From an uncultured Alphaproteobacteria bacterium (GTDB lineage: Bacteria > Pseudomonadota > Alphaproteobacteria > Methylaequorales > Methylaequoraceae), in the NCBI GenBank assembly GCA_902542925.1, contig CACBWF010000001.1, positions 41,569 through 105,568 on the forward strand: a DNA stretch of 64,000 bases. The letters run 5' to 3'. Positions 2,462 to 30,299 of the stretch are shown in pieces. Under the pieces are notes generated by a model. It was given only the letters and a program-made list of their open reading frames with translations, did no database searches and had not been told where the DNA came from. The translations under genes were made by a program, and so were the position numbers. Each line of letters opens with the position of its first letter. The stretch's first letter is position 1.

Positions 2462-2467
2462 GAAACA

Positions 2468-11909: not shown

Positions 11910-11919
11910 GGTAACCAAA

Positions 11920-12231
11920 ATGGACAATGTAAATCATCTTGAAAAATTTAAATTACAGATAGAACTTGGTGATAATAACAAGAAATTAGCGGGAATACAG
12001 AATCTTGAGCAAGTTGCTCAAGAGTTTGAATCTTTGTTTGTCCATCAAATGTTAAAAAGTGCTAGGAATGCAAAACTTGCTGAATCAATATTCCACAATG
12101 ATGCTCAGGATACTTATCAAACTCTTTTAGATCAGGAGTATTCAAAATCACTTGCTAAAAATCATAATTTTGGAATTGCTGAATCACTTGTTAGACAGTT
12201 TGGCAATTATGTAAAAGGAACGGAAGATTAA
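11920..12231 (+). CDS. flgJ: Flagellar rod-binding protein (FlgJ N-terminal domain only, no muramidase domain)
   Basis: 103 aa. FESLFVHQMLKSARNAKLAESIF rod-binding motif. Sits between flgI and flgK. Confidence 0.65.
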   Translation: MDNVNHLEKFKLQIELGDNNKKLAGIQNLEQVAQEFESLFVHQMLKSARNAKLAESIFHNDAQDTYQTLLDQEYSKSLAKNHNFGIAESLVRQFGNYVKGTED

Positions 12232-15200
12232 TGCCAAGTTTATTTGACATCGGAAAAAGTGGATTACAAGCTTACAGGCAGTCACTTGCTGTTACTGGAC
12301 AAAATATAGCAAATGTAAACACCAAAGGGTATAAAAAAAGAGATGCCTCATTAGCAGAAGTTTCTGGTGCTGGTGGTGGCGTAACTGAAATATCTGATCA
12401 AACAGGTTTAGGTGTAAGAGTTGAACAAATCAGACGTTCGTTTGACGAATTTTTACTAGATAAATCAAGACAAGCAAGCGCATTATTTCAAAAGTCTGAT
12501 ACTTTTTTACAGGAAGTAAGAGATCTGGAAAATCTTTTGTTACCAGGCGATTCAAATTTAAGTTCTTCAATATCAAATTTTTTTAATGCTTTACAGGAAG
12601 TAGCTGCTGCGCCAGATGATCAGGCTCCAAGGATAGTTGCAAATGAACAAGGTAAAGATATGGCTGGTCAATTCAATCTTTATTCTGATAGAATAGATAA
12701 CTTGAAAGGTAGACTGAAAAGCCAAGCAAATAATGCAGTAACTTCAGTAAATTTATTGTTAACACAACTTTCAAGTATAAATGAAGATTTATTAACTTCT
12801 GGATTAACCTCTCAAACTTCAAATGCAAAACTTGATCAGAGAGACCTGTTAATTGATCAATTATCTGAAATATCTCAAATAACTGTAAATTACGGATCAA
12901 GAGGTGATGCTCTAATAAGATTGGGTAATACAGGATCTGGACCAATAATTCTCGAAAAAGATAAGATTAGTAAAATTGATGTTTTAGAACAGGGTGAAAG
13001 ATTACAACCCGTTGTTGGTCTAGGAAAAGTTGCAACAAATCAAATACAAGGTGGAATAATAAGTGGTTTAGCAGATGCTTATGCGCTTGTCGGCGATACT
13101 CAAAATGAAATTGATAACTTAGCAATAATTGTTGCTAAGAATTTTAATCAAATTAATAAAAATGGGCTTAATCTTGAAGGTAATATTGGCAAAAAAATGT
13201 TTTCGGTAACAAGTCTTGAAGCCATTGCAAACCCTACAAATAGAACAACAGTTGGAGCTGAAATAATTGTTGATGATCCAGAAATACTTAAAAGAGATAA
13301 TTATAGTCTGCAATATAGTAGTTCAAATAATTCATGGACATTAAATTCTTCATCATTAGATTCACCAATTGTTTCTAACACTTCTCAAATTGAAGGTCCT
13401 GGATTTAAAGTTTCAATATTTGGCTCTGCTATGGATGGAGACGAATTCAATTTAAAACCAGTAAATGAATCAAAAGGAATTCAATATCTTTTTACTAGAC
13501 CTCAAGATATTGCTGCTGCTGCCAAAATACTAATTAGCTCTGATACACAAAATTTGGGCAGTGCACAACTTCAAGAAATACCTTTAATAGCTTCAGTAGA
13601 TGATACAACTTTAGAAAATATTGAAAGTGTCTTTTCTAACAGTCTTCACCCAGTTACTTCAACTCAATTTTCTTCTGATGGAGGCGTTGCAATCATTCAG
13701 GAAGGAACGAGTAGTGTAAATTTAAGTTCGTACAAAGCCCAACCAACTGCAAAATTTGGTTTGTCTTCTTCAGATATAAGTAGTTTGACAAATATGACAT
13801 TGACCCTATCTGATTCAAGTACGGTTTCAGTTGATCTAACTGGACTATCCTCAATTCAAGAAGTAGCCCAGACTCTTAATAATGGTTTGGATGTAAATGG
13901 AAGCTCACACAATTTTAGAACGAAAGGATTATTCGCATCTGGCGGTGATTCATCTTTAACAATTGCAAGTAATAATCTAACTTTCAATTCAGCAACACTA
14001 TCTACAGGAACTACTCTTAATGGAGTAATTAATAATCCTACAGTTACTGCTGCAAGTGATATTCAAATTTTTACAAGAGAGGGAAGACATTTATCTGGAA
14101 CAACTCTTTCTACATCAGAAATTGCTAAATACCTTACAAAAGAAAATGGTTTTAATATTTCAGCTGAGTATAGAGCAGACTATCTAAATGGTACAGGTTC
14201 AGAACAATATAGAGGAATTGAAATAGAACGCTCAACAACAGCAGGTAATCATACAGTTAGTTTGATGGCAAATGGTAGTAATAGTTTTAGTGCTCAACAG
14301 CATGCCAGCACATTGCCAGCTAGCAACGTAACATCAGCTTATACATTAAAAGTTACATCTGGAAGTAGTTCAAGTTCGGTTAATATAAGTGTGCCAGTTG
14401 AATCATCAGCGGGATATGTAGCAGGACTTATTAATACTCAAGCAAATAATTTAGGTGTTGAAGCTACTGCACTGACGAGAGTAAAAATTCCTGCACCAAG
14501 TTCAAATGGTACAATTTCTTTTTCTTTAAAAAGTAAAGCTGGAACAAATAGTACTGTATCAATAAGCGCTTCAGTGCTTTCAGATGATTTAACTAACTTA
14601 GCAACCGCTATAAATAACTTTTCTGGCAGGACTGGAGTAACAGCATATCTTTCTAATGATAAAAATCATGTAATTATGGAAAATACAGAGGGTGATGATA
14701 TAGAATTGACTTCATTTACGGCACCGGCTAATTTGACATTATCGCTCTTAAAATCAGACTTTTCATCAGCAGCAACATTAACAAATATGGGATCAACAAA
14801 TAAAGCTGCTCGATTTGGTGGAGAATTACAAATTGAATCATCTGGAACAATTACAACATCAAACGATGGTGGCTCAACAAATATCTCAAGTTCAGCAAAT
14901 GCTTTTAAAGATGGTTTTTTTAAAATTAGTTCTTCAACAACTGGTGAAACAAAAACTATAAAACCTGTCACTCTAGAAGGTGATATATCCGGTTCTCATC
15001 CAAGTGGAATTGATGCATCAAGTTCAGTTTTATCTTATGGGTTAACACTTCCTCAAACTGGAACAGGAACACAATTTACAACTTCATTTGATGCATCTAA
15101 ACTTGAAAGTGTCTCTGCTAACTCGGTAGCTAAATCACTCGCTGATGGGTTAAGATCTTCAAGCCCTTCAGTAGAAATTAGAGGGAATTCTATTAGTAGT

Positions 15201-17300
15201 TTACCAGCTGACGATTCGAGTTTTCAAATTAATCATGACGGTTTAACATATACTATAACTATGAAAAATGGCGAGGCAAGAATATCTGGGGGAGAAACAG
15301 ATATGGTTGATGCATATTTTGAAGATCCAAATGAAATAACAATAAATACTACTGGGTTTAATAGTACCTCAACAATAACTAGTACTGAACACGGATTAGA
15401 AACTGGTGATGCAATTATCTATAATGCTGCTGAAAAAGTCAAAGTGGATACAACAAATTTTACTTCAACTGTAAGTATTACAGCTGAAAGTCATGGGTTT
15501 ACAACTGGAGATCCTATTGTCTATAAAGCTGGTGGTAATCTTCCTATAAATGGCCTAACAGATGGAACTACTTACTTTGCAATTAGAGTCGACGCAGATA
15601 CATTTAAATTAGCTACCACGAGCTCAAATGCGTCAGGAGGAACAGCTATAACAATTACAGGGGGTTCTGGAGGAAGTGTTGAAGATACGTTTGCAAGTCC
15701 AATTACTGGTCTTACGGATGGAGAGACATATTTTGTAGTTAAAACTGATGATCACAACTTTAAATTAGCGCAAACATTAGCATTAGCAACAAATGCTTCT
15801 CCTTCTACTATTACTATTGCTGGGCAGACAGGAGGTAACGCATTGGACACTTTTGACCCAGGAAAAAGACTTTATCTTTCAGCAGGTAAAACAATTTCAG
15901 CATCACAATTTTCATTTGCAACTGATAGTGTAAATGATACTAATGCTACAGCTTTTGGAATGCTTGATTCCAACATTGAAACAACAATAACTGGTTCTTC
16001 AATCACAACTCCTGCAGCTAGTGATTCCACCCATTTTCATCTTCAACTTAATGAGTATGCAAATCCAATTGGAGTATTTGTTAGAGCTAATTCTAAAACG
16101 ATAAATACATCAACAGTCGGTGGTTCTTCAACTACACTTACATCAGCAGGTCATGGATTTAAAACTGGAGATAAAATTCTTTATACAGCAGCTGGAACTG
16201 CGATGTCCGGTCTATCAGGTGGAACTTCTTATTTTGCAAAAGTTGTAGATGCTAATACATTTAGCCTAGCATCAACTTTTGAAAATGCAACAGCTGATAC
16301 CCCTACCCTATTAAGTTTTGGAGGTGGTAATGGACATGCATCTGATACATTCGCTACCGTTTATGCTCAGGCTTACATTAGTGACAATTTATCAGCACCT
16401 GCAACAACTATTGGTATATCCGCAGAAATAAATCAAGTCAGTGATACAAATGCTCAAATTTCCATTATAAAAGAGGCAGATAAAAATAGTCTAATTGTTG
16501 ATACAATCACTGCAAGTGATGGAACAGCTGCAGAAAATTTTGGTTTTAAAACAAACCTAACCAGAGTCAATGTTTTAAATGATGAGATAAAAATTACATC
16601 AATTTCTACCGATCAAACTAATAGTAAGGCAATAAGTGTATCAGCTAATAATATGAGTTCGTTGGTAGGTAATAATTTGACAATAAATAATTTACCTCCT
16701 GAAGATCTAATTATTTTATCAACTGGTTCAGGTGCTAACAAAATAGCTGCGAGTTATGGTGAGAAAATACCTGTCATTGATAACTCTGAATTCAGATTTG
16801 TAATAGACTCAACCAATTCGAGTCAGGTTGAAATATTTGAAGCAGATACCTTACATTCAATTGCAACACGCCTTATTCCTACTGATGGGAAATTTAGTGC
16901 AATCGATAGATCCTTTGAAATTACAGGAGAAACAAAGGTCAAAGATATCTTTCATATTCAGAATAACAATGAAGGTGTTGGTGATAATAGGAATATTTTA
17001 CAGATGATAGCTCTTCAAGAATCAGATGTAAATGGACTTAATTCAGGAAGTTTTCAAGATATTTTTAATACCACCTTAACAGAAATTGGATCAACAGTAA
17101 GGTCTGCTGAAATGAATGCCAGTAATAATGAAGCTAGTAGAGATGAGGCAAAAGCTCTTGAAGATGAAAGATCTGGAGTTGAAATGGATGAAGAAGCAGC
17201 AGCTCTAATTCAATTTCAACAATCTTACTCAGCAAATGCGAGAATCATTCAAACAGCAAGAGAATTATTTGATTCTCTAATTCAAGTCATAAGATCATGA
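12231..17300 (+). CDS. flgK: Flagellar hook-associated protein 1 FlgK, giant variant with a ~1200-aa central insertion
   Basis: Canonical FlgK N-terminus MPSLFDIGKSGLQAYRQSLAVTGQNIANVNTKGYKKR. Canonical C-terminus EEAAALIQFQQSYSANARIIQTARELFDSLI. Single uninterrupted 1689-codon frame. Confidence 0.8.
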   Translation: MPSLFDIGKSGLQAYRQSLAVTGQNIANVNTKGYKKRDASLAEVSGAGGGVTEISDQTGLGVRVEQIRRSFDEFLLDKSRQASALFQKSDTFLQEVRDLENLLLPGDSNLSSSISNFFNALQEVAAAPDDQAPRIVANEQGKDMAGQFNLYSDRIDNLKGRLKSQANNAVTSVNLLLTQLSSINEDLLTSGLTSQTSNAKLDQRDLLIDQLSEISQITVNYGSRGDALIRLGNTGSGPIILEKDKISKIDVLEQGERLQPVVGLGKVATNQIQGGIISGLADAYALVGDTQNEIDNLAIIVAKNFNQINKNGLNLEGNIGKKMFSVTSLEAIANPTNRTTVGAEIIVDDPEILKRDNYSLQYSSSNNSWTLNSSSLDSPIVSNTSQIEGPGFKVSIFGSAMDGDEFNLKPVNESKGIQYLFTRPQDIAAAAKILISSDTQNLGSAQLQEIPLIASVDDTTLENIESVFSNSLHPVTSTQFSSDGGVAIIQEGTSSVNLSSYKAQPTAKFGLSSSDISSLTNMTLTLSDSSTVSVDLTGLSSIQEVAQTLNNGLDVNGSSHNFRTKGLFASGGDSSLTIASNNLTFNSATLSTGTTLNGVINNPTVTAASDIQIFTREGRHLSGTTLSTSEIAKYLTKENGFNISAEYRADYLNGTGSEQYRGIEIERSTTAGNHTVSLMANGSNSFSAQQHASTLPASNVTSAYTLKVTSGSSSSSVNISVPVESSAGYVAGLINTQANNLGVEATALTRVKIPAPSSNGTISFSLKSKAGTNSTVSISASVLSDDLTNLATAINNFSGRTGVTAYLSNDKNHVIMENTEGDDIELTSFTAPANLTLSLLKSDFSSAATLTNMGSTNKAARFGGELQIESSGTITTSNDGGSTNISSSANAFKDGFFKISSSTTGETKTIKPVTLEGDISGSHPSGIDASSSVLSYGLTLPQTGTGTQFTTSFDASKLESVSANSVAKSLADGLRSSSPSVEIRGNSISSLPADDSSFQINHDGLTYTITMKNGEARISGGETDMVDAYFEDPNEITINTTGFNSTSTITSTEHGLETGDAIIYNAAEKVKVDTTNFTSTVSITAESHGFTTGDPIVYKAGGNLPINGLTDGTTYFAIRVDADTFKLATTSSNASGGTAITITGGSGGSVEDTFASPITGLTDGETYFVVKTDDHNFKLAQTLALATNASPSTITIAGQTGGNALDTFDPGKRLYLSAGKTISASQFSFATDSVNDTNATAFGMLDSNIETTITGSSITTPAASDSTHFHLQLNEYANPIGVFVRANSKTINTSTVGGSSTTLTSAGHGFKTGDKILYTAAGTAMSGLSGGTSYFAKVVDANTFSLASTFENATADTPTLLSFGGGNGHASDTFATVYAQAYISDNLSAPATTIGISAEINQVSDTNAQISIIKEADKNSLIVDTITASDGTAAENFGFKTNLTRVNVLNDEIKITSISTDQTNSKAISVSANNMSSLVGNNLTINNLPPEDLIILSTGSGANKIAASYGEKIPVIDNSEFRFVIDSTNSSQVEIFEADTLHSIATRLIPTDGKFSAIDRSFEITGETKVKDIFHIQNNNEGVGDNRNILQMIALQESDVNGLNSGSFQDIFNTTLTEIGSTVRSAEMNASNNEASRDEAKALEDERSGVEMDEEAAALIQFQQSYSANARIIQTARELFDSLIQVIRS

Positions 17301-17348: not shown

Positions 17349-18629
17349 ATGAAAATAAGTAGCAAATTATTTAATGAACAGCAATTGAATCTTCTCTCAA
17401 AACAAATGGAGAATATTCAATCTGTTCAATCTAAAATTGCATCTGGAAAAAATATAGTTTTTGCATCAGATGACCCCGTTGGTGCTGTTGAATTATCTGG
17501 GTTAAAAGATATAAACAGTAAGGTAGGGCAATATATTAATAATGCAGAACTTTCTTTGAGTAGACTTCAGATGATGGATGATACTCTGGAAGCAGCAAAA
17601 AATGTTTTTATTAGGTGTAACGAATTAGCTATTCAGGCAGCAAATGATGTTCTTGCACCTAGTGATAGAGAGTCTATTGCATTAGAGTTTGATGAATTAA
17701 AAAAGGAATTACTTTCTCTTGCAAATACGACAGATAGTACTGGAGCACATTTATTTTCTGGATTTAAAACTAAAACAACACCATTTGTAATGGATTCTAC
17801 AGGCACTGTAACCTATGAAGGAGATAGAGGTGTAATTAGTTTAGCAGTTTCAGAAAGTAGAATGTTAGAATCAACTATTGATGGTGGTACTGTTTTTAGA
17901 GATATTGTTACAAGTGACGGTGTTTCAACAGATTTATTTGAAGCAGTTGATAACATAAGTAGATCTATTCGAACGGCCTCCTCTGGAGTTGAAGCAGCAA
18001 AAGCGCCAGGTATAGCAAAAATAAATCTTACAAATGAAGATCCTGGAACATATAGTTTCACAATTACTTCTGGAAGCAAATCTGCAGACTTCTCAATTGA
18101 TATAACTGGTGCCGATTTATCGGATTTACGTACAGCAATTAACGCTGCTGATCTAGATATTACAGCAACACTTGAGGATTCAAATACAACTCTCAAACTT
18201 ACTAATACATTTAGTCAAGACATAACAATGAGTAATGTTAAAATTCCTGGTATTACAAAAGCACAAGAACAACCAACGTCTTTTTTTACTTTTCAACCAG
18301 TAGATGCATCTGGTAACAGTCTTGGAAACTCTCAAACCCTTTATGACTTTGATCAAACAATTGCAAGTCGACTAGACGAAATGGTTACTATTCAAAATCA
18401 TTTAGCTAATCAAAGAGCAAAAGTAGGAGCTAGATTAAATTCAGCACAAAGACAAACTGATATTATGAGGGAACGTCAACAGTTAATTAACAAAGATATA
18501 AGTGAATTAGCAGATGCAGATTTAGCTGAACTCGTTACACAACTACAATCACAATTAACAAGTCAAGAAGCAACCCAAAAAGCATTTGTAAGAATTTCTC
18601 AGTTAAATCTTTTTGACCATATTGGTTAA
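17349..18629 (+). CDS. flgL: Flagellar hook-associated protein 3 FlgL
   Basis: Flagellin-like N-terminus SKIASGKNIVFASDDPVGA. Position directly after flgK. Confidence 0.8.
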   Translation: MKISSKLFNEQQLNLLSKQMENIQSVQSKIASGKNIVFASDDPVGAVELSGLKDINSKVGQYINNAELSLSRLQMMDDTLEAAKNVFIRCNELAIQAANDVLAPSDRESIALEFDELKKELLSLANTTDSTGAHLFSGFKTKTTPFVMDSTGTVTYEGDRGVISLAVSESRMLESTIDGGTVFRDIVTSDGVSTDLFEAVDNISRSIRTASSGVEAAKAPGIAKINLTNEDPGTYSFTITSGSKSADFSIDITGADLSDLRTAINAADLDITATLEDSNTTLKLTNTFSQDITMSNVKIPGITKAQEQPTSFFTFQPVDASGNSLGNSQTLYDFDQTIASRLDEMVTIQNHLANQRAKVGARLNSAQRQTDIMRERQQLINKDISELADADLAELVTQLQSQLTSQEATQKAFVRISQLNLFDHIG

Positions 18630-19126
18630 AGAAGATCCTCAATTCCAAAATCTTTTTTTATGAGAGGTTCAAAAAATTCAAGACCTTTTTCATTTTTTAA
18701 GCTCCATCCAGAGGGTGCTTTTGGAATTGAACCTGCTCTTAGAGCAAAGCAATAAGCTTTAAATTCCTTAAAAAACTTATCTTCACTAAACTTTTTTTCT
18801 TTTGTACCGTCAAAAGCACTTCCAAACAGACCTTTAAGCTTTCTTGGTCCTTTTATACCATCATGTTTAAGAATGTAATATATAAAATGATTAACTCGTT
18901 CATGTGCTTCAAACTGAGCTCCTTTTAATTCCGCCATAAATCGAATAGATTCCTCAGCAGGCTTTGTTAACTCCTCAGTTGGTATTTCAATATATTCCTC
19001 TGAAAGACCCTCAGCATATTTCTTCCCAACCATTTCCAAGGAATATTGCTTGGTTAAAAAATCGTACATAACACATCCAACAGCTAAATCATACAAAAAG
19101 TGAGGACAATAAAGTTTTTCGCTCAT
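18626..19126 (-). CDS. Hypothetical protein encoded on the opposite strand between flgL and the flagellin genes
   Basis: 166 aa; no family recognised by eye. Confidence 0.4.
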   Translation of the reverse strand: MSEKLYCPHFLYDLAVGCVMYDFLTKQYSLEMVGKKYAEGLSEEYIEIPTEELTKPAEESIRFMAELKGAQFEAHERVNHFIYYILKHDGIKGPRKLKGLFGSAFDGTKEKKFSEDKFFKEFKAYCFALRAGSIPKAPSGWSLKNEKGLEFFEPLIKKDFGIEDLL

Positions 19127-19299: not shown

Positions 19300-20088
19300 A
19301 TGCCTTCAGTCTCGAATTTAGCCGTTGGTGCTGCAATGGCTGGTGCCGCTGCCTCTAAGGCTCGTCATCAAATGAACGAATCAATTGCAAGATTGTCAAC
19401 TGGTATTAGATCCATGTATGGTGGTGATGCTGCTGGTCAATCAATTGCAAACATGATTGGTGCCAAGGGTAAAAGTTTTGCTGTTGCTTCAAGAAATCTT
19501 GAAGACGGTATTTCTTACCTTCAAGCTGCTGAAAGTGTCCTCTTGGAAATGGCTGCACTAGCAACTAGATTGAGAGAACTTGGAACGCAGTACAATAATG
19601 TCGCTCTTATGACATCATTTGATCAAGTAGCTTTGAATAATGAAGCTGCAGCGATTGGTGATACAATGGATGCGATCCAAACAAATATGAAATTTAATGG
19701 AGTCTTCCTTGTTGGTGCGAGTCATAAATTTCAAATCGGTATTAATGATGCTAGTAGTACGTTAACCATAGGTGTAAACCAAACTATTGGTGTTCTAAAT
19801 ACTATAACTGGTGCTAACGGAGCTGATGCTTCTGCTGACACAGTTATTGGTCACATTGCGAAAGCACTTGGTAATGTTGCTGCCGGTATGGCTGGCTTAA
19901 AGGGTGCTCAAGCTGTTGCTGCTAACTCAGCTGCAAATTTAAATGCTGCTGCTGCAAGAATTCAGGATACTGATTACGCTCTTGAAACTGCTGCATTGAC
20001 AAAAGCTGCAATCTTAAACCAATCTGCGATGGCGATGGTAGCTCAAGCTAATGATGCGCAACAATCAATATTAACCGTTATACAATAA
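19300..20088 (+). CDS. Flagellin (short, divergent, 262 aa)
   Basis: N-terminus ESIARLSTGIRSMYGGDAAGQSIA. C-terminus ARIQDTDYALETAALTKAAILNQSAMAMVAQANDAQQSIL. RBS AGGAG. Confidence 0.8.
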   Translation: MPSVSNLAVGAAMAGAAASKARHQMNESIARLSTGIRSMYGGDAAGQSIANMIGAKGKSFAVASRNLEDGISYLQAAESVLLEMAALATRLRELGTQYNNVALMTSFDQVALNNEAAAIGDTMDAIQTNMKFNGVFLVGASHKFQIGINDASSTLTIGVNQTIGVLNTITGANGADASADTVIGHIAKALGNVAAGMAGLKGAQAVAANSAANLNAAAARIQDTDYALETAALTKAAILNQSAMAMVAQANDAQQSILTVIQ

Positions 20089-20108
20089 CATAATTTAGGA
20101 GAATAAAT

Positions 20109-20894
20109 ATGCCTTCTGTTTCAAATATAGCCGTTGGTGGAGCTCTAGCATCCGCTGCTGCTGACAAAGCCAGACACGGAATGAATGAGAGTATTGCTCG
20201 TTTATCAACCGGCGTAAGGGCAATGTATGGTGGTGATGCTGCTGGTCATTCCGTCGGAACGGTTCTTGTAGCTAAAAGTAAGAGTTTTTCGCAAGCTGTA
20301 AGAAATATCGAAGATGGTATTTCAATGCTACAGCAAAGTGAATCTTTACTACTTGAAGTTGCAAACTTACTAACCAGAGGAAGAGAACTTGGTATTCAAG
20401 ATGATGGATTAACAAGTGCTTTGGGTGATGCTAACCAGATTGCAGCAGCGAATGCTGAGATTATAGTGATCACAGACACAGTTGATACATTGTTAGCACA
20501 GACCAAATTTAATGGTAAACTTCTGGAAACAGGCAACTTTGCAATTGGTGTAAACGACGCAAGTACTACACATAGTGCTGGTCCCAACAAAGATATTACC
20601 GCCGTTGATGATGCTGACGCAACAGGCTTCGAATCTCAAGCTGATGTTGGTTTGCAAGAAGTTGCTGCGGCGTTAGGTAACGTAGCTGCGGATCTTGTTT
20701 CTTTGAAAGCATTCCAAGCGGTTGCTGCTAACACATCAGCTAACATGGCTGCTGCTGCTGCACGTGTTATGGATACTGATTTTGCCAAAGAGACTGCTGA
20801 TTTGACAAAAAATAGTATTTTAAATCAGGCAGCACTATCTATGGCAGCTCAGGCAAACGACGCTCAATCTGCTATATTGGCTGTACTACAATAA
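20109..20894 (+). CDS. Flagellin (short, divergent, 261 aa; paralog of the preceding gene)
   Basis: Same D0/D1 architecture; tandem with a 20-nt spacer. Confidence 0.8.
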   Translation: MPSVSNIAVGGALASAAADKARHGMNESIARLSTGVRAMYGGDAAGHSVGTVLVAKSKSFSQAVRNIEDGISMLQQSESLLLEVANLLTRGRELGIQDDGLTSALGDANQIAAANAEIIVITDTVDTLLAQTKFNGKLLETGNFAIGVNDASTTHSAGPNKDITAVDDADATGFESQADVGLQEVAAALGNVAADLVSLKAFQAVAANTSANMAAAAARVMDTDFAKETADLTKNSILNQAALSMAAQANDAQSAILAVLQ

Positions 20895-20921
20895 GGAAAC
20901 ACTACATATAGTATGTTTTAA

Positions 20922-20957
20922 GGGAAATGTGAGTAACTCACATTTCCCTTTTTTTTT
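20922..20957 (+). terminator. Rho-independent terminator after the second flagellin gene
   Basis: GGGAAATGTGAG-taac-CTCACATTTCCC hairpin followed by T9. Confidence 0.7.
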
Positions 20958-20972
20958 GGCATTGGATTTGCA
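20957..20972 (+). promoter_or_regulatory. Sigma-54 promoter (TGGCAT-N5-TTGCA) upstream of the 514-aa flagellin gene
   Basis: tggcattggatttgca lies ~40 nt upstream of the ATG at 21012. Confidence 0.55.
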
Positions 20973-21011
20973 GTTACTCTTTGTAAAAATTTATGTATAC
21001 AAAGAGAAATT

Positions 21012-22556
21012 ATGACAAAAATTAACACAACAATGGGGACAACAGGCGCGCTAAAAAGTCTCCTAAAAAATGAAAGAGAAATGCTTTCCGCAATGGAAAG
21101 AATTTCTTCAGGTAAAAGAATTAATCATGCAGGCGATGATGCTGCTGGTGCTGCTATTGCAGATAGAATGTCTGCTACTATTGGTGCATTAGATATGTCA
21201 ATTAGAAATGCATCTGATGTTTTATCAATGGCACAGGTTGCTGAAGGAGCGCTAGATGAAGCTTCTGCTGCATTACAAAGAATAAGAGAATTAGCAATTC
21301 AAGCTGCAACAGATATTATTAATGGTGAGCAAAAAGTTTATTTACAAACTGAAGTTGATCAATTACTTGATGAGATGGACCGTGTAACAAGAGATACAAC
21401 TTTTAATGAAATTGCTGTATTAGACGGAACTTTTGCAGACAGACGTTTTCAAATTGGTTCTCATGAAAGAGAAAAAGCAGTAATTTCTATTGCTAATATG
21501 AGAAATACTTCGATTGGTGCCTATCAAGCTACTACTGAAGGAACTAGTGGTCAAGCAAACCTAGCACAAAATGCTTTTCTTGCAGCGAGTAAATCAGCAG
21601 CAACTAGTAAAGTTACAACTTCCGATGCATTCACTATTACAGGTCTTTTAGGATCAAATGAATTAACACCAACGGCTGGTGAAACTGCAAAATCATTGAC
21701 TAACAGAATCAATGATTCTTTTGACAAAACAGGTGTTTCTGCAACGGCTTCTACTCAGGCTAGACTAAGAATGAAGACAAATTCAGCTGGTGATCACGTT
21801 GTTACCATGAAAGTTTATGGAAAAAACACAACAGCTCAGTCAATTTCTGCAACTGTAACTTTAACAACTGCATATACAGGAAATGATCTAACAGATCTTA
21901 GAGACCAGTTTAATTCTTTCAGTTCAGTAACAGGTATTACAGCGACTTTAAGTGCTGATAGTAACCAAATCGTTCTAGTACAAGATGAAGGTGAAGATAT
22001 TGTCATAGAAGATTTAGATTTTGCAAGTGTTACAGATGCAAATACATTAATGGAAGTAACAGGACTTAATTTTAAACAAGATACAACTGGAACATCAGTT
22101 GAAGTTCAGGATGCTAGCCAAACTAATGATAGTTTTAGATTAGGTGGAGAAATTACTTTCCATTCATCTCATACTTTTTCAATTGTTGGTAATGCAGATG
22201 GAGGATTATTTGAGTCGTCTGCAGCAACTTCAAGTTTAAATTCAGTTTCAACTATTGACATCAAAACAATGGCAGGTGCTGTTGATGCACTAAAGGTAGT
22301 TGACAGAGCATTAGATAGAGTTCACATGGAAAGAGCAAAATTTGGTGCCATTATGAGTAGAATGAATGTTGTTGTTGATAATTTAACTAATGTTTCTCAA
22401 AACCAAAGAGCTTCAAAAGCTAGAATTATGGATGCAAATTTCGCTTCAGAATCTTCAAGATTAGCGAAATCTCAAATTCTGCAGCAATCTGCATTAAATA
22501 TGATTGCCCAGGCTTCAAGAACAATGCAAAATGTATTAGTTTTATTCCAAGGATAA
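21012..22556 (+). CDS. Flagellin (canonical FliC/FlaA type, 514 aa)
   Basis: N-terminus ERISSGKRINHAGDDAAGAAIADRM. C-terminus KSQILQQSALNMIAQASRTMQNVLVLFQG. Confidence 0.9.
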   Translation: MTKINTTMGTTGALKSLLKNEREMLSAMERISSGKRINHAGDDAAGAAIADRMSATIGALDMSIRNASDVLSMAQVAEGALDEASAALQRIRELAIQAATDIINGEQKVYLQTEVDQLLDEMDRVTRDTTFNEIAVLDGTFADRRFQIGSHEREKAVISIANMRNTSIGAYQATTEGTSGQANLAQNAFLAASKSAATSKVTTSDAFTITGLLGSNELTPTAGETAKSLTNRINDSFDKTGVSATASTQARLRMKTNSAGDHVVTMKVYGKNTTAQSISATVTLTTAYTGNDLTDLRDQFNSFSSVTGITATLSADSNQIVLVQDEGEDIVIEDLDFASVTDANTLMEVTGLNFKQDTTGTSVEVQDASQTNDSFRLGGEITFHSSHTFSIVGNADGGLFESSAATSSLNSVSTIDIKTMAGAVDALKVVDRALDRVHMERAKFGAIMSRMNVVVDNLTNVSQNQRASKARIMDANFASESSRLAKSQILQQSALNMIAQASRTMQNVLVLFQG

Positions 22557-24284: not shown

Positions 24285-25037
24285 CTACCATCCCATTATT
24301 AGATTAATAATTTTTTCTCTTTTTTCTTCTAAAAACTTTGTCGGATTAATTGCTCTATCTTTTGAAAAATCTTTCATGATATCATTCTTTGTTTTTGAAA
24401 ATCCGGAATGTATACCTGCCTCATTTCTATCTCGTGCAAAGTGTTCTAAGAAAGAAGTGTTAGATTGGATGAAGGGAACTTTTAATTGGGCTGGCCAATA
24501 ATAATCAAATCCGTATATAGTTTCAAAAAATGGATTATGATTTAAAAAATTTACCATTATTTCAACCATATTTCTATCATAACATTGGCTTACTCCAGGA
24601 CATGTTTTTCTCAAACTAAAATCTTTATTTTGTTCAATAATATTTTCTGATTTATTATGAAATACACTATTAAACAGCCCGATTGGAAATTTTTTTTTTT
24701 GTTTTTTAGAAATATTATAAAAATATCTAAGTTGATTAAGAAACTGTGGATCATGAATAACATCATTATCAGTAATATAAAGCAAATCAAAGTTCTTATA
24801 TATATAACAAAAATCTCTAAAGCATCTTGCTCTTGATCTTTCTATCCCTCCCCTAACTCTGAATCTCAAAATATTTTGAGAATATTTTTTGAGAAATTTT
24901 TCATTATATTCTGTTGATGCATCATCATAAATTAATAATTGAGAATTTTTATCCAATAATTGGGTTAAATTCTCTAGACAAAGCTTGGTAATATTTTTTC
25001 TATTATACGTTGATAAAGCAACAAGAATTTTTTCCAT
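24285..25037 (-). CDS. Glycosyltransferase family 2-like protein
   Basis: VALSTYNR...YDDAST pattern typical of GT-A/GT2 enzymes. Confidence 0.55.
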   Translation of the reverse strand: MEKILVALSTYNRKNITKLCLENLTQLLDKNSQLLIYDDASTEYNEKFLKKYSQNILRFRVRGGIERSRARCFRDFCYIYKNFDLLYITDNDVIHDPQFLNQLRYFYNISKKQKKKFPIGLFNSVFHNKSENIIEQNKDFSLRKTCPGVSQCYDRNMVEIMVNFLNHNPFFETIYGFDYYWPAQLKVPFIQSNTSFLEHFARDRNEAGIHSGFSKTKNDIMKDFSKDRAINPTKFLEEKREKIINLIMGW

Positions 25038-25091
25038 AAACTAAACATTTTTTTATATTAGACGTTTATAGATTTAGTATAATATTAATCT

Positions 25092-25451
25092 TTGAATAAA
25101 GGTATAGTTATGGAAATTTTTACTGAAAAAATGGTTAACCAGATTAAGATTATCGAAAAACTTCTTAATCAGCTTGAAAAAGATCTTAACCATTTAAATA
25201 AACCAAGTAAACTAGACAACGTCTCAGAACTAGTTGAAAGAGTTGGTAAAATTACAACTGTTTTAAAAACTACTCTTGATTTAGAAAAGGGTGGCGACAT
25301 TGCAAAAAATTTACTTCATCTTTATAATCACATTCAATATGCTGCTCAAAGAATCAAAGAACACGAAGATTATTCAGCAGTCAAGAGTGCTCATAAAGTA
25401 GTAAAAGAAATTAATGAAGGATGGTCTAAGCTTTCAACTGCTGCTGCTTAG
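25092..25451 (+). CDS. fliS: Flagellin-specific chaperone FliS
   Basis: LDLEKGGDIAKNLLHLYNHIQYAAQRIKEHEDYSAVKSAHKVVKEINEGW matches the FliS core. Confidence 0.8.
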   Translation: MNKGIVMEIFTEKMVNQIKIIEKLLNQLEKDLNHLNKPSKLDNVSELVERVGKITTVLKTTLDLEKGGDIAKNLLHLYNHIQYAAQRIKEHEDYSAVKSAHKVVKEINEGWSKLSTAAA

Positions 25452-27031
25452 CTTAAAAATTTTTTTACTTCATTATTTATATGTGACCAATCATTGAATT
25501 TTGATTGTCTAACCATTTTTACAGACTTATACCATGGGGTTTTGGAATCTTTCAAACCCCATCTCCAATCTGGTACTTTTGGAAGTAGTAATAATGTTTT
25601 CTGTCCAAGAGTGCCAGCTAAATGAACTAATGACGTATCTATTGTAATCACCTTATCCATTAAACTTAAAACCAAGGCTGTTTGCGAAAAGTCTTCAAGC
25701 TTATTATCAAGGACTTCTACATTTGAAAATTTTTTTAAAAATTTATGTTCCTCATTTGAAACACCTTTTTGTAATACAAAAAATTTACAATCATTATTTT
25801 TGAATATTTCTGAAAATTTTTCGATATGAATTGATCTATTTAGGTGCCTTTTATGTAGAGGGTTCCCAGACCATGAAACTCCAATATTCAATTTACTTTT
25901 ATCAATCCTTTTAGTTAAAAACTTATTAAAATTTACATTAAAACTCTTAAGCCTTTCGACATCAACAATAAGTGGATCAATAATTTTTTTGCTATTTTCC
26001 CAAAATAGATAGGGTAAGCTCATCATAAATATTCGATAGTCAAATGAAGTTTCATCAACATCATCAAATTTGTCTGAAATATTTACACTATCCAGTTCTG
26101 GACAAGATTTAAAAAAATTAATTGTCGATTTGTGTGCAGCAAAACTTACTTTATAATTTTTCTCAAGAAATGATTTTAAGAATCTTGATGCCATAAAATC
26201 GTCGCCATAGCCTTGTTCGCGATGTATTACAATTTTTAGATTTTTTTCTTTAAGATTCTTTTTAGTAAGTTCTGGATATCCATCTCCACCATATTTTACT
26301 AAAAATTTTTCTTTATCTCTATGTTTTTCGTATAATTCAAGGCCTTTATTATAATTACCTTGCAACAATTCAAGTAGAGATAAGTTGAAATTAGCAAAAA
26401 AATTATCTTCTTTTTCTAATGTTTTTTTATAAAATTCTTTTGCTTTTTTAAATTGAGATGTTTCAAAGAAATAAACACCTAAGCCTAAGTGAGCTAGAGC
26501 ATTTTCTTTATCTAAATGCATACAAGTAATAAAACATTCTTTAGCCATTTCAGGTTCTTGTGTTGCAATATAGGCTATACCTAATTGGGCCCAATTGTTT
26601 GGCATTTGTGGTAATTTATGTACACAGTCTGATAAAATATCTTTAGCTTTATACACATCTGCATAATCATGCATTAACATACATGCATAATCAAATGCAA
26701 TCATGTAGCATTCTGGACAATATTGATAACCTTTTTCTAAGATTAAAAATCGTTCTTCTTTCATTTTTTCATGTTCGTAAATCATAGAAAGTTGTAAATA
26801 AGCTTCTTCAAACGATTTGTCATTTTCTAATATTTTCTTAAGTTTTTCTATTGCATCATCATAATTACAAAATTCAATATCATCTAATGCTAAGACGTAA
26901 TTAGCATATGAACTATCCTTTTTTTTATTCAGAATTTCTTCAGCTAGATCTCTTGCTTTTGTAAGATGATTTGTGGAGTCCGGATTCGATATAAATTCTT
27001 TTAAGTTATTTTCTAAGGTTTCAAGATTCAT
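25448..27031 (-). CDS. TPR-repeat protein with C-terminal GT9-like (heptosyltransferase-fold) glycosyltransferase domain; FlmG-like flagellin glycosyltransferase candidate
   Basis: N-terminal TPR repeats. C-terminus NIGVSWSGNPLHKRHL...ITIDTSLVHLAGTLGQKTLLLLPKVPDWRWG resembles the GT9 DSGxxHLAxALG region. Confidence 0.55.
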   Translation of the reverse strand: MNLETLENNLKEFISNPDSTNHLTKARDLAEEILNKKKDSSYANYVLALDDIEFCNYDDAIEKLKKILENDKSFEEAYLQLSMIYEHEKMKEERFLILEKGYQYCPECYMIAFDYACMLMHDYADVYKAKDILSDCVHKLPQMPNNWAQLGIAYIATQEPEMAKECFITCMHLDKENALAHLGLGVYFFETSQFKKAKEFYKKTLEKEDNFFANFNLSLLELLQGNYNKGLELYEKHRDKEKFLVKYGGDGYPELTKKNLKEKNLKIVIHREQGYGDDFMASRFLKSFLEKNYKVSFAAHKSTINFFKSCPELDSVNISDKFDDVDETSFDYRIFMMSLPYLFWENSKKIIDPLIVDVERLKSFNVNFNKFLTKRIDKSKLNIGVSWSGNPLHKRHLNRSIHIEKFSEIFKNNDCKFFVLQKGVSNEEHKFLKKFSNVEVLDNKLEDFSQTALVLSLMDKVITIDTSLVHLAGTLGQKTLLLLPKVPDWRWGLKDSKTPWYKSVKMVRQSKFNDWSHINNEVKKFLS

Positions 27032-27139
27032 TTTTAAACTTTCTAAATTGGTTTACTAATCCCAAAATACTTCAATATTTATGCCAATTATTAGTTTTTT
27101 TTGGCATAAATATTGAAACAATACATTTAAGGTTTTTTA

Positions 27140-28042
27140 ATGATAAGTGTAATAATACCAACATATAATGGCATAGAAAAAGGGCTTGAAAGGTCGATAA
27201 GATCTGTATTAATGCTAAAAAACATAGATGAAGTTATTATAGGAATTGATGGTTCTGATGATACAAGTAATGAATTATGTAATGAACTACAAAAAAAAGA
27301 TAAAAGAATAAAGTACTTTGAAAATAAAAAAAATATTGGATGGGGAAAAACAGCTGCCATTTGTATATCAAAGGTAGGATGTAATCGAACTATAATTCAT
27401 AGTGATGATGATTGGATGCTTCCAGAAATGAATAATCTCATTGAATTTTCTTTAAAAAATAATTTAGATCTAGCATATAGTAAGTATGCTATTGGGAATG
27501 ATCAGACAAAAAAGATCAATATTTTTAGTAATCCTACATGGGAAAAAAAAAATTATATTGGTGAAAAAGATGAGTTTCATGAACTTTTATTACATGACTG
27601 TTATATCGGAAGATCTATAATAAAAACCGAAATTTACAAAAACACTTTTAATCTTAAAGCATTAGAAAACTTAAATAGAGAATTTGGAGAAGAATTTACA
27701 GCAATCGACTATAATTTATTTTTAGACTTATCTTCACAAGATTCTAAATTTGGGTATTTAAACCAAATTACAAATATATGGACCCAACGTGCAAACCAAG
27801 AAACTGGAATGTTTTATAATACCTCGGGAAAACATTTAGGCGAATCTTCTTATCTTTTTAATAAATATTACGATGAAAAAAAACACAGGAAAGATTGGGA
27901 TTTTTTAGGAAGTGTATTTAATCGAGTTAAATATTTATATACGTTTGCAAAAAAAAAAAATAAAAAAATTAATCCGATTTATGAAAATCATTTTAAAGTA
28001 TTTTCAAAAAAAATTAGTTCTTTAAGAGGTTCAAATGTTTAA
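27140..28042 (+). CDS. Glycosyltransferase family 2
   Basis: N-terminus MISVIIPTYNG...IIGIDGSDD. Confidence 0.6.
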   Translation: MISVIIPTYNGIEKGLERSIRSVLMLKNIDEVIIGIDGSDDTSNELCNELQKKDKRIKYFENKKNIGWGKTAAICISKVGCNRTIIHSDDDWMLPEMNNLIEFSLKNNLDLAYSKYAIGNDQTKKINIFSNPTWEKKNYIGEKDEFHELLLHDCYIGRSIIKTEIYKNTFNLKALENLNREFGEEFTAIDYNLFLDLSSQDSKFGYLNQITNIWTQRANQETGMFYNTSGKHLGESSYLFNKYYDEKKHRKDWDFLGSVFNRVKYLYTFAKKKNKKINPIYENHFKVFSKKISSLRGSNV

Positions 28043-29874: not shown

Positions 29875-29880
29875 AGGAAA

Positions 29881-30294
29881 TTAATTAATTTCTTTAGAAA
29901 TAGTATCGGGATCATTTGGATCAAATTCTTTTGATGCATAAGCAACCATAATTGCCTCTTCTTTATTTTTATTAATTATTGTATGAGCTGTTCCTGGACC
30001 AACATAAACAAGTTGAGGGCGTTTTGATTTTAATATTTTTTTTATTTTTTTGCCGTTTGCTTTCATTAATAAAGTAACCGTACCTGCAACACAACAAAAC
30101 CATTCTCCTTTTCTTTCGTGATAATGATCCCCTCTCCTAAAGCCAGGCATAACGCTATAGACATATATCTGTCCACCATTAGGTATTTTTTCTGACTTAA
30201 ATCTTAGTGCTTCAAACAGAGCACCTCTACTATCTGAGTATAATTTTAAGTCTTTAATTTTATAATCTATATTTTCTGTAAAGTGCATATCCAT
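29881..30294 (-). CDS. Cupin-fold WxcM/FdtA/QdtA-like sugar 3,4-ketoisomerase
   Basis: 137 aa. GDHYHERKGEWFCCVAGT resembles FdtA-type ketoisomerases. Confidence 0.5.
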   Translation of the reverse strand: MDMHFTENIDYKIKDLKLYSDSRGALFEALRFKSEKIPNGGQIYVYSVMPGFRRGDHYHERKGEWFCCVAGTVTLLMKANGKKIKKILKSKRPQLVYVGPGTAHTIINKNKEEAIMVAYASKEFDPNDPDTISKEIN

Positions 30295-30299
30295 TTTTT

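What the first reader, a model, noticed from the sequence alone, without database searches (positions are those of the whole stretch)
15380..16330. Four ~70-aa internal repeats inside the FlgK insertion
A recurring motif appears at least four times: HG(F/L)xTGDxIxYxAxG...GL(T/S)xG(T/E)(T/S)YFxx(V/R)(V/T)DxxxFxLAxT...G(G/Q)xGGxxxDTF. Examples are TAESHGFTTGDPIVYKAGG...GLTDGTTYFAIRVDADTFKLATT and TSAGHGFKTGDKILYTAAG...GLSGGTSYFAKVVDANTFSLAST. Short beta-rich repeats like this in surface or fibre proteins suggest a modular adhesin-like or phage-fibre-like domain grafted into a flagellar junction protein.
Basis: seen in the sequence. Interest (0 to 1): 0.6.

Follow-up and report, generated by a model that had tools for sequence, protein, structure and literature searches.

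The report
Phage-tail-like barrel domains in giant FlgK
A marine bacterium's flagellar hook-filament junction protein is three times the usual size and carries three copies, one probably nested inside another, of a small beta-barrel module also found in phage tail fibres and in other bacteria's flagellins; this extends a known theme to a new protein and is not a new kind of system.

Summary
The repeat is real and far beyond chance, but it is not four ~70-aa units. The 1,689-aa FlgK (12231-17300, +) has two complete ~75-aa units: R1 (aa 1080-1154) and R3 (aa 1300-1374). It also has an N-terminal third (R0, aa 1046-1068) and a C-terminal two-thirds (R2, aa 1155-1208) that flank R1. The two pieces are exactly complementary, so the best reading is three domains, one split by R1 sitting in its β2-β3 loop.

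Each unit is predicted to be a small β-barrel (pLDDT about 86). No Pfam or NCBIfam model reaches its cut-off. It is weakly related to the endosialidase and E1-FCCH barrels. It is clearly homologous to modules in marine phage tail-fibre and baseplate proteins. It is also very common: 26,550 representative proteins match, including giant flagellins and FliD caps.

The host gene is a genuine FlgK inside a flagellar operon. The architecture is conserved in relatives, and one relative differs by a clean one-domain indel.

Function is inferred, not shown: 33 outward-facing decoration or binding modules on the 11-subunit junction ring. Verdict: a new variant of known flagellar outer-domain elaboration, of moderate interest.

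The parts
12231..17300 (+). flgK, a giant hook-associated protein 1 (1,689 aa). The D0/D1 core is about aa 1-330 and about aa 1600-1689. The surface-exposed insertion is about 1,270 aa.
   Evidence: Pfam hits: Flg_bb_rod at aa 6-35, FlgK_D1 at 98-324 (8e-44), Flg_bbr_C at 1646-1685. TIGR02492 flgK_ends scores 246 bits against a cut-off of 170.75. It is the only FlgK in the window. Neighbouring genes are FlgG, FlgH, FlgI, FlgL, flagellins and FliD.
15366..15434 (+). R0: the N-terminal part (β1-β2, 'HGLETGDAIIYNAAE') of the split outer barrel domain, aa 1046-1068.
   Evidence: It matches domain HMM positions 1-24 only (1e-09). Shuffle z = 11-12 against the N-parts of R1 and R3. It is 87% identical to the L003 orthologue. 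AF2 predicts strands at model residues 14-16 and 26-30, with block pLDDT 75-90.
15435..15467 (+). Linker (aa 1069-1079, 'KVKVDTTNFTS') leading from the outer domain into the inserted copy.
   Evidence: AF2 predicts a strand at model residues 33-38. It is conserved in all FlgK relatives.
15468..15692 (+). R1: a complete barrel domain (aa 1080-1154) lying in the β2-β3 loop of the outer domain.
   Evidence: HMM positions 1-74, 4e-36. It matches phrog_38233 at 2.5e-11 and phrog_2885 at 3.4e-10. In the AF2 model it forms β1-β2-β3-β4-helix-β5 with pLDDT 85-96.
15693..15854 (+). R2: the C-terminal part (β3-β4-helix-β5, 'GLTDGETYF...DTF') of the split outer barrel domain, aa 1155-1208.
   Evidence: HMM positions 25-74 only, 2e-20. 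BLASTP E = 5e-8 against R3. Shuffle z = 12-20. It is 81% identical to L003. R0 spliced to R2 matches phrog_2885 contiguously over residues 1-71 at 1.6e-10.
15855..16127 (+). A 91-aa spacer (aa 1209-1299) that is not a repeat and is of unknown fold.
   Evidence: It has no domain HMM match and no Pfam or PHROG hit. It is 60% identical to L003.
16128..16352 (+). R3: a complete stand-alone barrel domain (aa 1300-1374).
   Evidence: HMM positions 1-74, 3e-36. The AF2 model has pLDDT 85.6 and pTM 0.75. Pfam E1_FCCH scores only 15-21 bits against a cut-off of 29.5. It is 83% identical to L003.

Best explanation
**What it is.** The region encodes three copies of one autonomous ~70-aa β-barrel module with the order β1-β2-β3-β4-short helix-β5. 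The copies sit in the surface-exposed insertion of a genuine but giant FlgK.

**Arrangement.** Two copies are contiguous (R1 and R3). The third is split. Its β1-β2 piece (R0) and its β3-β5 piece (R2) flank R1, so R1 most likely lies inside the β2-β3 loop of the outer copy, as a domain within a domain.

**Family.** The module belongs to a very large family that no tested library models. The family occurs in phage tail-fibre and baseplate proteins, in giant surface proteins, and in the outer regions of flagellins and FliD of other marine bacteria. It is remotely related to the endosialidase β-barrel and the ubiquitin-E1 FCCH barrel.

**Shown here.**
- The repeat itself and its significance.
- Homology to phage tail modules.
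- The complementarity of the two halves.
- Conservation of the architecture in relatives.
- Modular gain or loss of one copy.

**Inferred mechanism.**
- FlgK is exported unfolded through the flagellar type III system. This protein has no cysteine.
- Its D0/D1 helices assemble as the 11-subunit proximal layer of the hook-filament junction.
- The insertion folds outside the axial core as a chain of small β domains.
- The junction would then display 33 of these barrels on its outer face.
- By analogy with outward-facing barrels on phage tails and the sialic-acid-binding barrel of endosialidase, they probably act as decoration or binding modules. The partners could be glycans or neighbouring subunits. 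They are unlikely to be part of the torque-transmitting core.
- The pattern of clean loop insertions suggests the module's two ends lie close together, which would explain why it inserts into loops, including loops of itself. No coordinates were available to check this.
For: **Repeat statistics.** R1 against R3 gives E = 1e-18 and z = 22. The half units give z = 11-20.

**Split domain.**
- HMM coordinates are complementary: R0 covers positions 1-24, R1 covers 1-74, R2 covers 25-74.
- The same pattern occurs in every FlgK relative that covers the region: P0001, P0003, P0004, P0007, P0010, P0012, P0014, P0015, P0016 and L003.
- R0 spliced to R2 aligns contiguously to phrog_2885 at 1.6e-10.
- The halves are the best-conserved parts of the insertion, at 87% and 81% identity to L003. 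The rest of the insertion is 58-63% and the core is 75%.
- The AF2 model of aa 1036-1216 has pLDDT 82.5 and pTM 0.76. Its strand order is outer β1β2, then the full inner domain, then outer β3β4-helix-β5.
- The same N-half, full copy or copies, C-half pattern occurs in four non-flagellar proteins, with the break at HMM positions about 21-29.

**Fold.** The AF2 single-unit model has pLDDT 85.6.

**Phage homology.** PHROG tail families, BFVD Foldseek with 16 hits at E < 1e-3 and rmsd about 1 Å, and tblastn to cultured marine phages.

**Breadth.** 26,550 representative proteins match at E ≤ 1e-3, with up to 27 copies per protein.

**Flagellar use elsewhere.**
- A flagellin (P0101/P0115) and a FliD (P0024) carry the domain.
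- There are 4 copies in the fragmented flagellin-like stretch of L004 (nt 1769-3498) and 3 in the FliD of L004.
- Among the top 149 representatives, 7 are flagellins, 2 are FliD and 1 is a FlgK.
- Pfam confirms a 961-aa flagellin, a 1,771-aa flagellin and an 832-aa FliD.

**Genuine FlgK.**

**Modular indel.**

**Purifying selection.** Window against L001 shows 56 synonymous and 13 non-synonymous codon differences.

**Literature.**
- FCCH-type barrels face outward on siphophage tail tubes (PMC13576161).
- The endosialidase β-barrel holds a polysialic-acid binding site (PMC12632334).
Against: - No coordinates of the models were available. Contact between R0 and R2 in three dimensions is inferred from strand order, pLDDT and pTM, not measured.
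- The alignment behind the outer domain has only 8 FlgK sequences.
- No BFVD model reproduces the nested pair as a rigid body; TM-score on the query is at most 0.46.
- Similarity to solved structures is not significant. Foldseek against PDB gives E ≥ 0.18. The PDB profile search gives E ≥ 0.36.
- Any ligand-binding function therefore rests on weak analogy.
- Nothing here tests binding, glycosylation or the position of the insertion on an assembled junction.
- The organism is uncultured.
Confidence: 0.7

Rival explanations
1. The region holds four tandem independent repeats, two of which (R0 and R2) are decayed remnants of once-complete copies. They do not fold together. Only R1 and R3 are functional domains.
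For: - R0 and R2 each match only part of the HMM.
- 22 N-half-only and 56 C-half-only matches occur among 1,206 domain hits in other proteins, so partial matches are common.
- The three-dimensional contact between R0 and R2 could not be inspected.
Against: - The two pieces are exactly complementary (positions 1-24 and 25-74), with no overlap or gap.
- They are the most conserved parts of the insertion, at 87% and 81% identity to L003.
- The arrangement is kept in all relatives.
- The spliced sequence scores like a whole domain against phrog_2885, at 1.6e-10.
- AF2 gives both halves pLDDT of about 85-90.
Confidence: 0.15
2. The barrels have no ligand. They are inert bulk that thickens or stiffens the hook-filament junction, or that spaces other parts of the insertion. 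This is analogous to the mechanical explanations proposed for giant flagellins.
For: - The literature on giant flagellins and on outer domains leaves function open and discusses mechanical roles (PMC6248924; PMC11532411).
- Similarity to the glycan-binding endosialidase barrel is sub-threshold.
- The FCCH-like domains on phage tail tubes are described only as external decoration.
Against: - The domains are more conserved than the rest of the insertion.
- The same module is recurrent in phage receptor-recognition organelles such as tail fibres and baseplates. That is more typical of binding modules than of filler.
- Neither point is decisive.
Confidence: 0.3
3. The Ser/Thr-rich barrels are mainly carriers of O-linked nonulosonic-acid glycans. 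They act as a glycosylation scaffold that changes surface charge, or that masks the junction from flagellotropic phages or grazers.
For: - The insertion is 27% Ser+Thr and the repeat domains are 28%.
- A sugar-modification cluster lies directly downstream of fliD. It contains two GT2 glycosyltransferases, a TPR protein, a PseB-like dehydratase, a formyltransferase, a UDP-GlcNAc 2-epimerase and a DegT aminotransferase.
- A flagellin locus carrying the same domain has a GT41 glycosyltransferase next to it.
Against: - There is no direct evidence of glycosylation.
- Phage homologues carry the same module without any such context.
- High Ser/Thr content is common in β-rich surface proteins.
- This explanation is compatible with the best explanation and does not exclude it.
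Confidence: 0.2
4. The finding is an artefact: a chimeric assembly, or a phage gene fragment fused in frame into flgK.
For: - The window comes from a single-cell or metagenome-type assembly.
- Many database homologues are fragments.
Against: - The same full-length architecture is present in independent assemblies: SAG AG-896-A16 at 99% identity, and MAGs MED723 and SAT45 with a collinear 1,780-aa FlgK.
- GC content is uniform across the gene, at 0.31-0.38.
- The ORF is uninterrupted and has both FlgK termini.
- Codon differences show purifying selection, 56 synonymous to 13 non-synonymous.
Confidence: 0.02

Closest known systems
Tail-fibre and baseplate-wedge proteins of marine phages. Examples are the Prochlorococcus phage P-HM1/P-HM2 and MED4-213 tail fibres, the Synechococcus phage S-SM2, S-SRM01 and Bellamy gp7 'baseplate wedge initiator', and Pelagibacter phage Baldr tail tubular protein B (PHROGs 2885, 38233, 32294).
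   Same: - They carry the same ~70-aa module, with 30-49% identity over the domain.
- They share the HGxxTGD...GLxxGxxY...DxxTFxLA motif set.
- The predicted folds superpose at about 1 Å.
- The module often occurs in many copies per protein.
   Different: - The host protein is a flagellar axial protein, not a virion protein. Nothing else in FlgK matches phage families.
- No BFVD model matched the nested pair as a rigid body.
- The function of the module in phages has not itself been studied experimentally, as far as I could find.
The β-barrel domain of phage endosialidases (Pfam PF12195; PDB 4hiz, 3gvj) and the FCCH β-barrel of ubiquitin-activating enzyme E1 (Pfam PF16190; PDB 2v31). This includes FCCH-like decoration domains on siphophage tail tubes.
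   Same: - All are small Greek-key-type β-barrels of similar size.
- These are the only Pfam families and solved folds that come up repeatedly, by sequence and by structure.
- They face outward on phage tails.
- The endosialidase barrel binds polysialic acid.
   Different: - All matches are below the curated thresholds: 13-21 bits against 29.5 for E1_FCCH and 14.6 against 35 for End_beta_barrel.
- Foldseek gives E ≥ 0.18 with TM-score on the query of about 0.4.
- This is a remote relationship at most, so no ligand site can be transferred.
Hypervariable outer domains of flagellins, including giant flagellins, and the extra domains of FliD.
   Same: - In each case β-rich modules are inserted between the two halves of the conserved D1 helices of a flagellar axial protein and are displayed on the surface.
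- They evolve by duplication and by insertion of pre-existing domains (PMC6248924; PMC11532411).
- The very same barrel module is used in flagellins and FliD of other marine bacteria.
   Different: - Here the carrier is FlgK, present at 11 copies per flagellum rather than thousands.
- In the papers I read, the flagellin outer-domain survey and the giant-flagellin paper do not mention FlgK.
- By its description, the 'DE region' of Oceanospirillales giant flagellins matches only flagellins, so it appears to be a different domain. This was not tested.
Structurally characterised FlgK proteins (Salmonella and Campylobacter).
   Same: - The D0/D1 core and both termini are shared.
- The operon position next to flgL is the same.
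- 11 subunits form the proximal junction layer (PMC12221982; PMC5691160 is listed).
   Different: - From general knowledge, those proteins are roughly 550-610 aa with two or three outer domains.
- This one is 1,689 aa, and 1,780 aa in relatives, with an insertion of about 1,270 aa.

Membership tests
FlgK (flagellar hook-associated protein 1) | Matches the FlgK equivalog model and has the N- and C-terminal axial-protein helices plus the FlgK D1 domain. | tested here: met
   TIGR02492 scores 246 bits against a cut-off of 170.75. Pfam FlgK_D1 scores 8e-44, and Flg_bb_rod and Flg_bbr_C are both above their cut-offs.
FlgK (flagellar hook-associated protein 1) | Lies in a flagellar operon immediately upstream of flgL. 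| tested here: met
   The gene order is FlgG, FlgH, FlgI, a short FlgJ-like ORF, FlgK, FlgL, flagellins, FliD. The same order is seen in L003.
FlgK (flagellar hook-associated protein 1) | Assembles as an 11-subunit layer between the hook and FlgL. | not testable with these tools
   Known for Salmonella and Campylobacter (PMC12221982). It is assumed here by homology.
Pfam PF16190 E1_FCCH | Score at or above the gathering threshold of 29.5 bits. | tested here: not met
   Scores are 12.9-21.4 bits. Only 5 of 47 family members match at E ≤ 0.1, with a best E of 6.6e-4.
Pfam PF16190 E1_FCCH | Significant fold match to a solved FCCH domain. | tested here: inconclusive
Pfam PF12195 End_beta_barrel (endosialidase β-barrel) | Score at or above the gathering threshold of 35 bits. 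| tested here: not met
   The spliced R0+R2 sequence scores 14.6 bits. 10 of 47 family members match sub-threshold, with a best E of 6.3e-5. PDB entry 4hiz gives E = 2.4 by profile and 0.41 by Foldseek.
Pfam PF12195 End_beta_barrel (endosialidase β-barrel) | Sialic-acid binding site residues. | not tested
   No reliable residue-level alignment could be made at this level of similarity.
Phage tail-fibre and baseplate barrel module (the domain shared by PHROGs 2885, 38233 and 32294) | Significant sequence match of the whole ~70-aa unit. | tested here: met
   Single units score 2.5e-11 to 3.4e-10, and the region scores 2e-22 and 2e-18. tblastn to cultured phages gives 1e-5 to 9e-4.
Phage tail-fibre and baseplate barrel module (the domain shared by PHROGs 2885, 38233 and 32294) | Same predicted fold. 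| tested here: met
   BFVD Foldseek gives 16 hits at E < 1e-3, with rmsd 0.8-2.1 Å over 64-71 columns and TM-score on the query of about 0.72 for the best.
Phage tail-fibre and baseplate barrel module (the domain shared by PHROGs 2885, 38233 and 32294) | The full-length protein is a member of those PHROG families, that is, a virion protein. | tested here: not met
   Only the barrel region matches. The other 936 aa of the insertion that were tested have no PHROG hit.
Giant-flagellin 'DE region' (Thomson et al. 2018) | Match to the DE-region HMM. | not tested
   The HMM is not held here. The paper states that DE matches only annotated flagellins, whereas this module is abundant in phage proteins. 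They are therefore probably different domains.

The most novel reading that the evidence does not exclude
The barrel may be a lectin-like module for nonulosonic-acid (sialic-acid-type) glycans that is exchanged between phage tail fibres and flagellar surface proteins. On the flagellum it would bind the O-linked glycans made by the adjacent sugar cluster on neighbouring subunits, or glycans on marine particles. The 33 barrels on the junction would then act as a self-crosslinking or adhesive collar. Phages carrying the same module would use it to grip glycosylated flagella or cell surfaces. This would give a direct molecular link between flagellotropic phage receptor-binding proteins and their targets.
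Probability: 0.1. Interest if true: 0.7.

Novelty: new variant of a known kind. Interest (0 to 1): 0.42.

Why it matters
Outer-domain elaboration is well documented for flagellins. The flagellin papers I read do not mention FlgK at all, and my searches found no description of an enlarged FlgK.

This FlgK is about three times the usual size. It is conserved under purifying selection in a small, AT-rich marine alphaproteobacterial lineage, which argues that the junction carries a function beyond joining hook and filament.

The module itself is one of the commoner uncharacterised β domains in metagenomes. It matches 26,550 representative clusters and can occur up to 27 times in one protein. It has no Pfam or NCBIfam model. 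It is shared between phage host-recognition organelles and the exposed parts of flagella.

The probable nesting of one copy in the β2-β3 loop of another also recurs in unrelated giant proteins. That makes it a tidy example of how repeat proteins can grow by loop insertion as well as by tandem duplication.

A dedicated family model and one experimental structure would annotate tens of thousands of proteins.

Tried and rejected
- **Whole-protein self-BLAST** printed nothing useful. It was replaced by unit-against-protein BLAST and shuffle tests.
- **DNA-level repeats:** TRF found no array in the repeat region; its single hit, a 9-nt unit at 12857-12881, lies elsewhere in flgK. Direct repeats are only 62-76% identical over 58 nt. 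A recent DNA duplication is rejected.
- **Curated family for the unit:** Pfam and NCBIfam have none. The only matches are sub-threshold E1_FCCH, End_beta_barrel, Cpn10 and Toast_rack_N.
- **Solved structures:** the profile search of PDB sequences gave only chance-level hits, such as antibody heavy chains at E = 0.36. Foldseek against PDB gave nothing at E ≤ 0.001.
- **Nested pair against BFVD:** no rigid-body equivalent was found.
It was rebuilt as alignment A2.
- **Cluster names** for ten homologues were uninformative.
- **Literature searches** for a giant FlgK, or for this domain in flagella or phage, found general context only.
- **Rest of the insertion:** it shows no further copies of the module and no phage-family hits.
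- **Other genes in the window:** the module is absent from them.
- **Neighbour-joining tree of domain copies**: it groups R1, R3, the extra L003 copy and the FliD copies, with the split copy apart. With about 70 columns it is not robust, and I draw no conclusion from it about the direction of transfer.
Full report
**1. The observation**

The finding lies inside one long ORF, 12231-17300 (+), of 1,689 aa.
- HGxxTGD at aa 1054, 1088 and 1308
- GLxxGxxYF at aa 1108, 1160 and 1327
- the closing DTF at aa 1152, 1206 and 1372

Unit-against-protein BLAST gives these results:
- R1 (aa 1080-1154) against R3 (aa 1300-1374): 46% identity over 75 aa, E = 1e-18
- R2 (aa 1155-1208) against the C-part of R3: E = 5e-8
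- R0 (aa 1046-1068) against the N-parts of R3 and R1: E = 2e-6 and 1e-5

Shuffle controls give z = 22 for R1 against R3 and z = 11-20 for the partial units. None of 500 shuffles reached the observed score.

At DNA level the copies are only 62-76% identical over 58 nt, and TRF finds no array in this region. The repeat is therefore real, ancient and visible only in protein.

The count is wrong, however. An HMM built from the units matches R1 and R3 over positions 1-74. It matches R0 over positions 1-24 only, and R2 over positions 25-74 only. That is two whole units and two complementary pieces.

**2. The host protein and organism**

The ORF is a genuine FlgK:
- Pfam finds Flg_bb_rod (aa 6-35), FlgK_D1 (aa 98-324, 8e-44) and Flg_bbr_C (aa 1646-1685).
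- The NCBIfam FlgK equivalog TIGR02492 scores 246 bits against a cut-off of 170.75.

It sits in a flagellar operon. The order is:
- FlgG, FlgH and FlgI
- a short FlgJ-like rod-binding ORF
- FlgK, then FlgL
- two minimal flagellins of 262 and 261 aa
- a 514-aa flagellin
- FliD

It is the only FlgK in the window. About 1,270 aa lie between the two halves of the D0/D1 core.

The window is 99% identical to a contig of the uncultured marine alphaproteobacterium SAG AG-896-A16. Two 'Rickettsiales bacterium' MAGs (MED723 and SAT45) have a collinear 1,780-aa FlgK at about 65% identity.

GC content is even across the gene. An assembly chimera or an in-frame prophage fragment is therefore excluded for practical purposes.

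**3. A split domain with a copy inside it**

R0 ends where the β2-β3 loop would be ('...AIIYNAAE'). R2 starts where that loop ends ('GLTDGETYF...'). A full unit, R1, sits between them. Several lines of evidence support one barrel built from R0 and R2, with R1 inserted in its loop:
- The HMM coordinates are exactly complementary.
- R0 artificially spliced to R2 aligns contiguously to the phage profile phrog_2885 over residues 1-71 at 1.6e-10, as well as a whole unit does.
- The same three-part pattern is present in every FlgK relative that covers the region.
- R0 and R2 are the best-conserved parts of the whole insertion, at 87% and 81% identity to L003. The rest of the insertion is 58-63% and the D0/D1 core is 75%. 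This argues against decayed remnants.
- AlphaFold2 on aa 1036-1216 gives pLDDT 82.5 and pTM 0.76. The strand order is outer β1-β2, then inner β1-β2-β3-β4-helix-β5, then outer β3-β4-helix-β5.
- The same pattern of N-half, one to five full copies, then C-half recurs in four unrelated giant proteins. The break lies at HMM positions about 21-29. Two of them were read residue by residue.

Physical contact between R0 and R2 is inferred, not measured. In addition, no BFVD model matched the pair as a rigid body.

**4. What the unit is**

A 47-sequence alignment of domain instances gave an AF2 model of R3 with pLDDT 85.6 and pTM 0.75. It is a small β-barrel with one short helix.

No curated model covers it:
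- Pfam gives only sub-threshold E1_FCCH (13-21 bits against 29.5) and End_beta_barrel (14.6 bits against 35).
- Across the 47 instances, 10 touch End_beta_barrel (best E 6e-5) and 5 touch E1_FCCH.
- NCBIfam gives nothing.
- The PDB profile search gives nothing significant.
- Foldseek against PDB ranks E1 FCCH domains and phage endosialidases first, but at E ≥ 0.18.

The relationship to those barrels is remote at best.

Homology to phage tail modules, in contrast, is clear:
- Single units score 2.5e-11 against phrog_38233 (tail fiber) and 3.4e-10 against phrog_2885 (baseplate wedge). The region scores 2e-18 and 2e-22.
- BFVD gives 16 hits below 1e-3. They include Synechococcus phage baseplate wedge initiators and several tail fibres, at about 1 Å rmsd over 64-65 residues and 30-38% identity.
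- tblastn finds the domain in tail genes of P-HM1, P-HM2, MED4-213, S-SM2, S-SRM01 and a Pelagibacter phage.

A profile search of 1.84 billion representative proteins finds 26,550 proteins at E ≤ 1e-3. One protein has up to 27 copies, and carriers reach about 7,900 aa.

**5. The same module elsewhere in flagella**

- Among the first homologues are a 365-aa flagellin and a FliD fragment.
- The flagellin lies in a locus with FlgM and FlaG. That locus (L005) has four flagellin-type reading frames, each with one copy of the module.
- The FliD in L004 has three tandem copies. Four more copies (nt 1769-3498) lie in the stretch between a Flagellin_N fragment and a Flagellin_C fragment upstream of it. 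This is probably one giant flagellin broken by frameshifts.
- Of the 149 most copy-rich representatives, 7 are flagellins (up to 1,771 aa), 2 are FliD and 1 is a FlgK relative. Pfam confirmed three of these.

Within the present window, however, only FlgK carries the module.

**6. Modularity and selection**

The L003 FlgK differs from the window's by a single clean 87-aa indel at window aa ~835. That indel is exactly one additional barrel.

The comparison between the window and L001 shows 56 synonymous and 13 non-synonymous codon changes. The insertion has no cysteine and is 27% Ser+Thr.

**7. How it most likely works**

[quoted passage not shown] The rest is inferred:
- The 1,270-aa insertion folds on the outside.
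- The junction would then carry 33 of these barrels.
- The pattern of clean loop insertions suggests that the module's two ends lie close together. That would explain why it can be dropped into loops, even into its own β2-β3 loop. The distance could not be measured without coordinates.

Related barrels face outward on siphophage tail tubes (PMC13576161). In endosialidase the barrel holds a polysialic-acid site (PMC12632334). I therefore favour an outward-facing decoration or binding role.

Two alternatives remain open:
- inert mechanical bulk
- a scaffold for O-glycosylation; a sugar-modification cluster lies directly after fliD

None of these was tested.

**8. Comparison and novelty**

Elaboration of flagellin outer regions by duplication and insertion of pre-existing domains is well described (PMC6248924; PMC11532411). 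This finding is a variant of that theme. I found the following points undescribed:
- The carrier is FlgK, at three times its usual length.
- The module has no curated family model, although it is very abundant.
- The module is shared with phage tail organelles.
- The module is probably self-nested.

I rate the finding a new variant of a known kind, with moderate interest (0.42).

Noticed in passing
window 24285-32560: Directly downstream of fliD lies a sugar-modification cluster typical of flagellar glycosylation with nonulosonic acids. It holds two GT2 glycosyltransferases, a 526-aa TPR protein, a PseB-like Polysacc_synt_2 dehydratase, a formyltransferase, a UDP-GlcNAc 2-epimerase and a DegT-type aminotransferase. 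The FlgK insertion is 27% Ser+Thr.
   Followed up: partly
window 19300-22556 and 32633-33445: There are four flagellin genes of very different size. Two are minimal, at 262 and 261 aa (D0/D1 only). One is 514 aa and has Flagellin_IN motifs. One more short flagellin-like reading frame lies beyond the sugar cluster. None carries the barrel module.
   Followed up: partly
window ~11911-12231: A short ORF between flgI and flgK carries the 'FESLFVHQMLKSAR' motif of the FlgJ rod-binding domain and has no muramidase domain. A rod-binding-only FlgJ is usual in alphaproteobacteria (general knowledge). The ORF is seen only in translation.
   Followed up: no
window 18626-19126 (-): A 166-aa ORF on the opposite strand between flgL and the first flagellin has no Pfam match. 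Its function is unknown.
   Followed up: no
L003 6001-11343 (FlgK aa 834-921): The related MAG's FlgK has one extra copy of the barrel. It is inserted cleanly just after the Flagellin_IN-like segment, where the window's FlgK has none.
   Followed up: yes
window 14517-14678 (FlgK aa 763-816): A Flagellin_IN motif (PF07196, 23.7 bits against a cut-off of 22.7, two stretches) sits inside the FlgK insertion. The same motif occurs in the 514-aa flagellin of the window. This suggests that other parts of the insertion are also shared with flagellins.
   Followed up: no
L004 222-7483: In this long-read metagenome contig, a flagellin-like stretch (4 barrel copies at nt 1769-3498) and a FliD (3 copies) are each split into several called genes, apparently by frameshifts. 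The same kind of fragmentation probably explains why all close FlgK homologues in the protein database are pieces of 554 aa or less.
   Followed up: partly
P0137, P0157, P0184, P0199 (representative proteins of 1,172-7,850 aa): These non-flagellar giant proteins show the same self-nesting of the barrel: an N-half, then 1-5 full copies, then a C-half. The break lies at HMM positions about 21-29.
   Followed up: partly
L005 7387-9732 (-): A GT41-family (O-GlcNAc-transferase-like) glycosyltransferase lies next to a flagellin locus whose flagellins each carry one barrel module.
   Followed up: no
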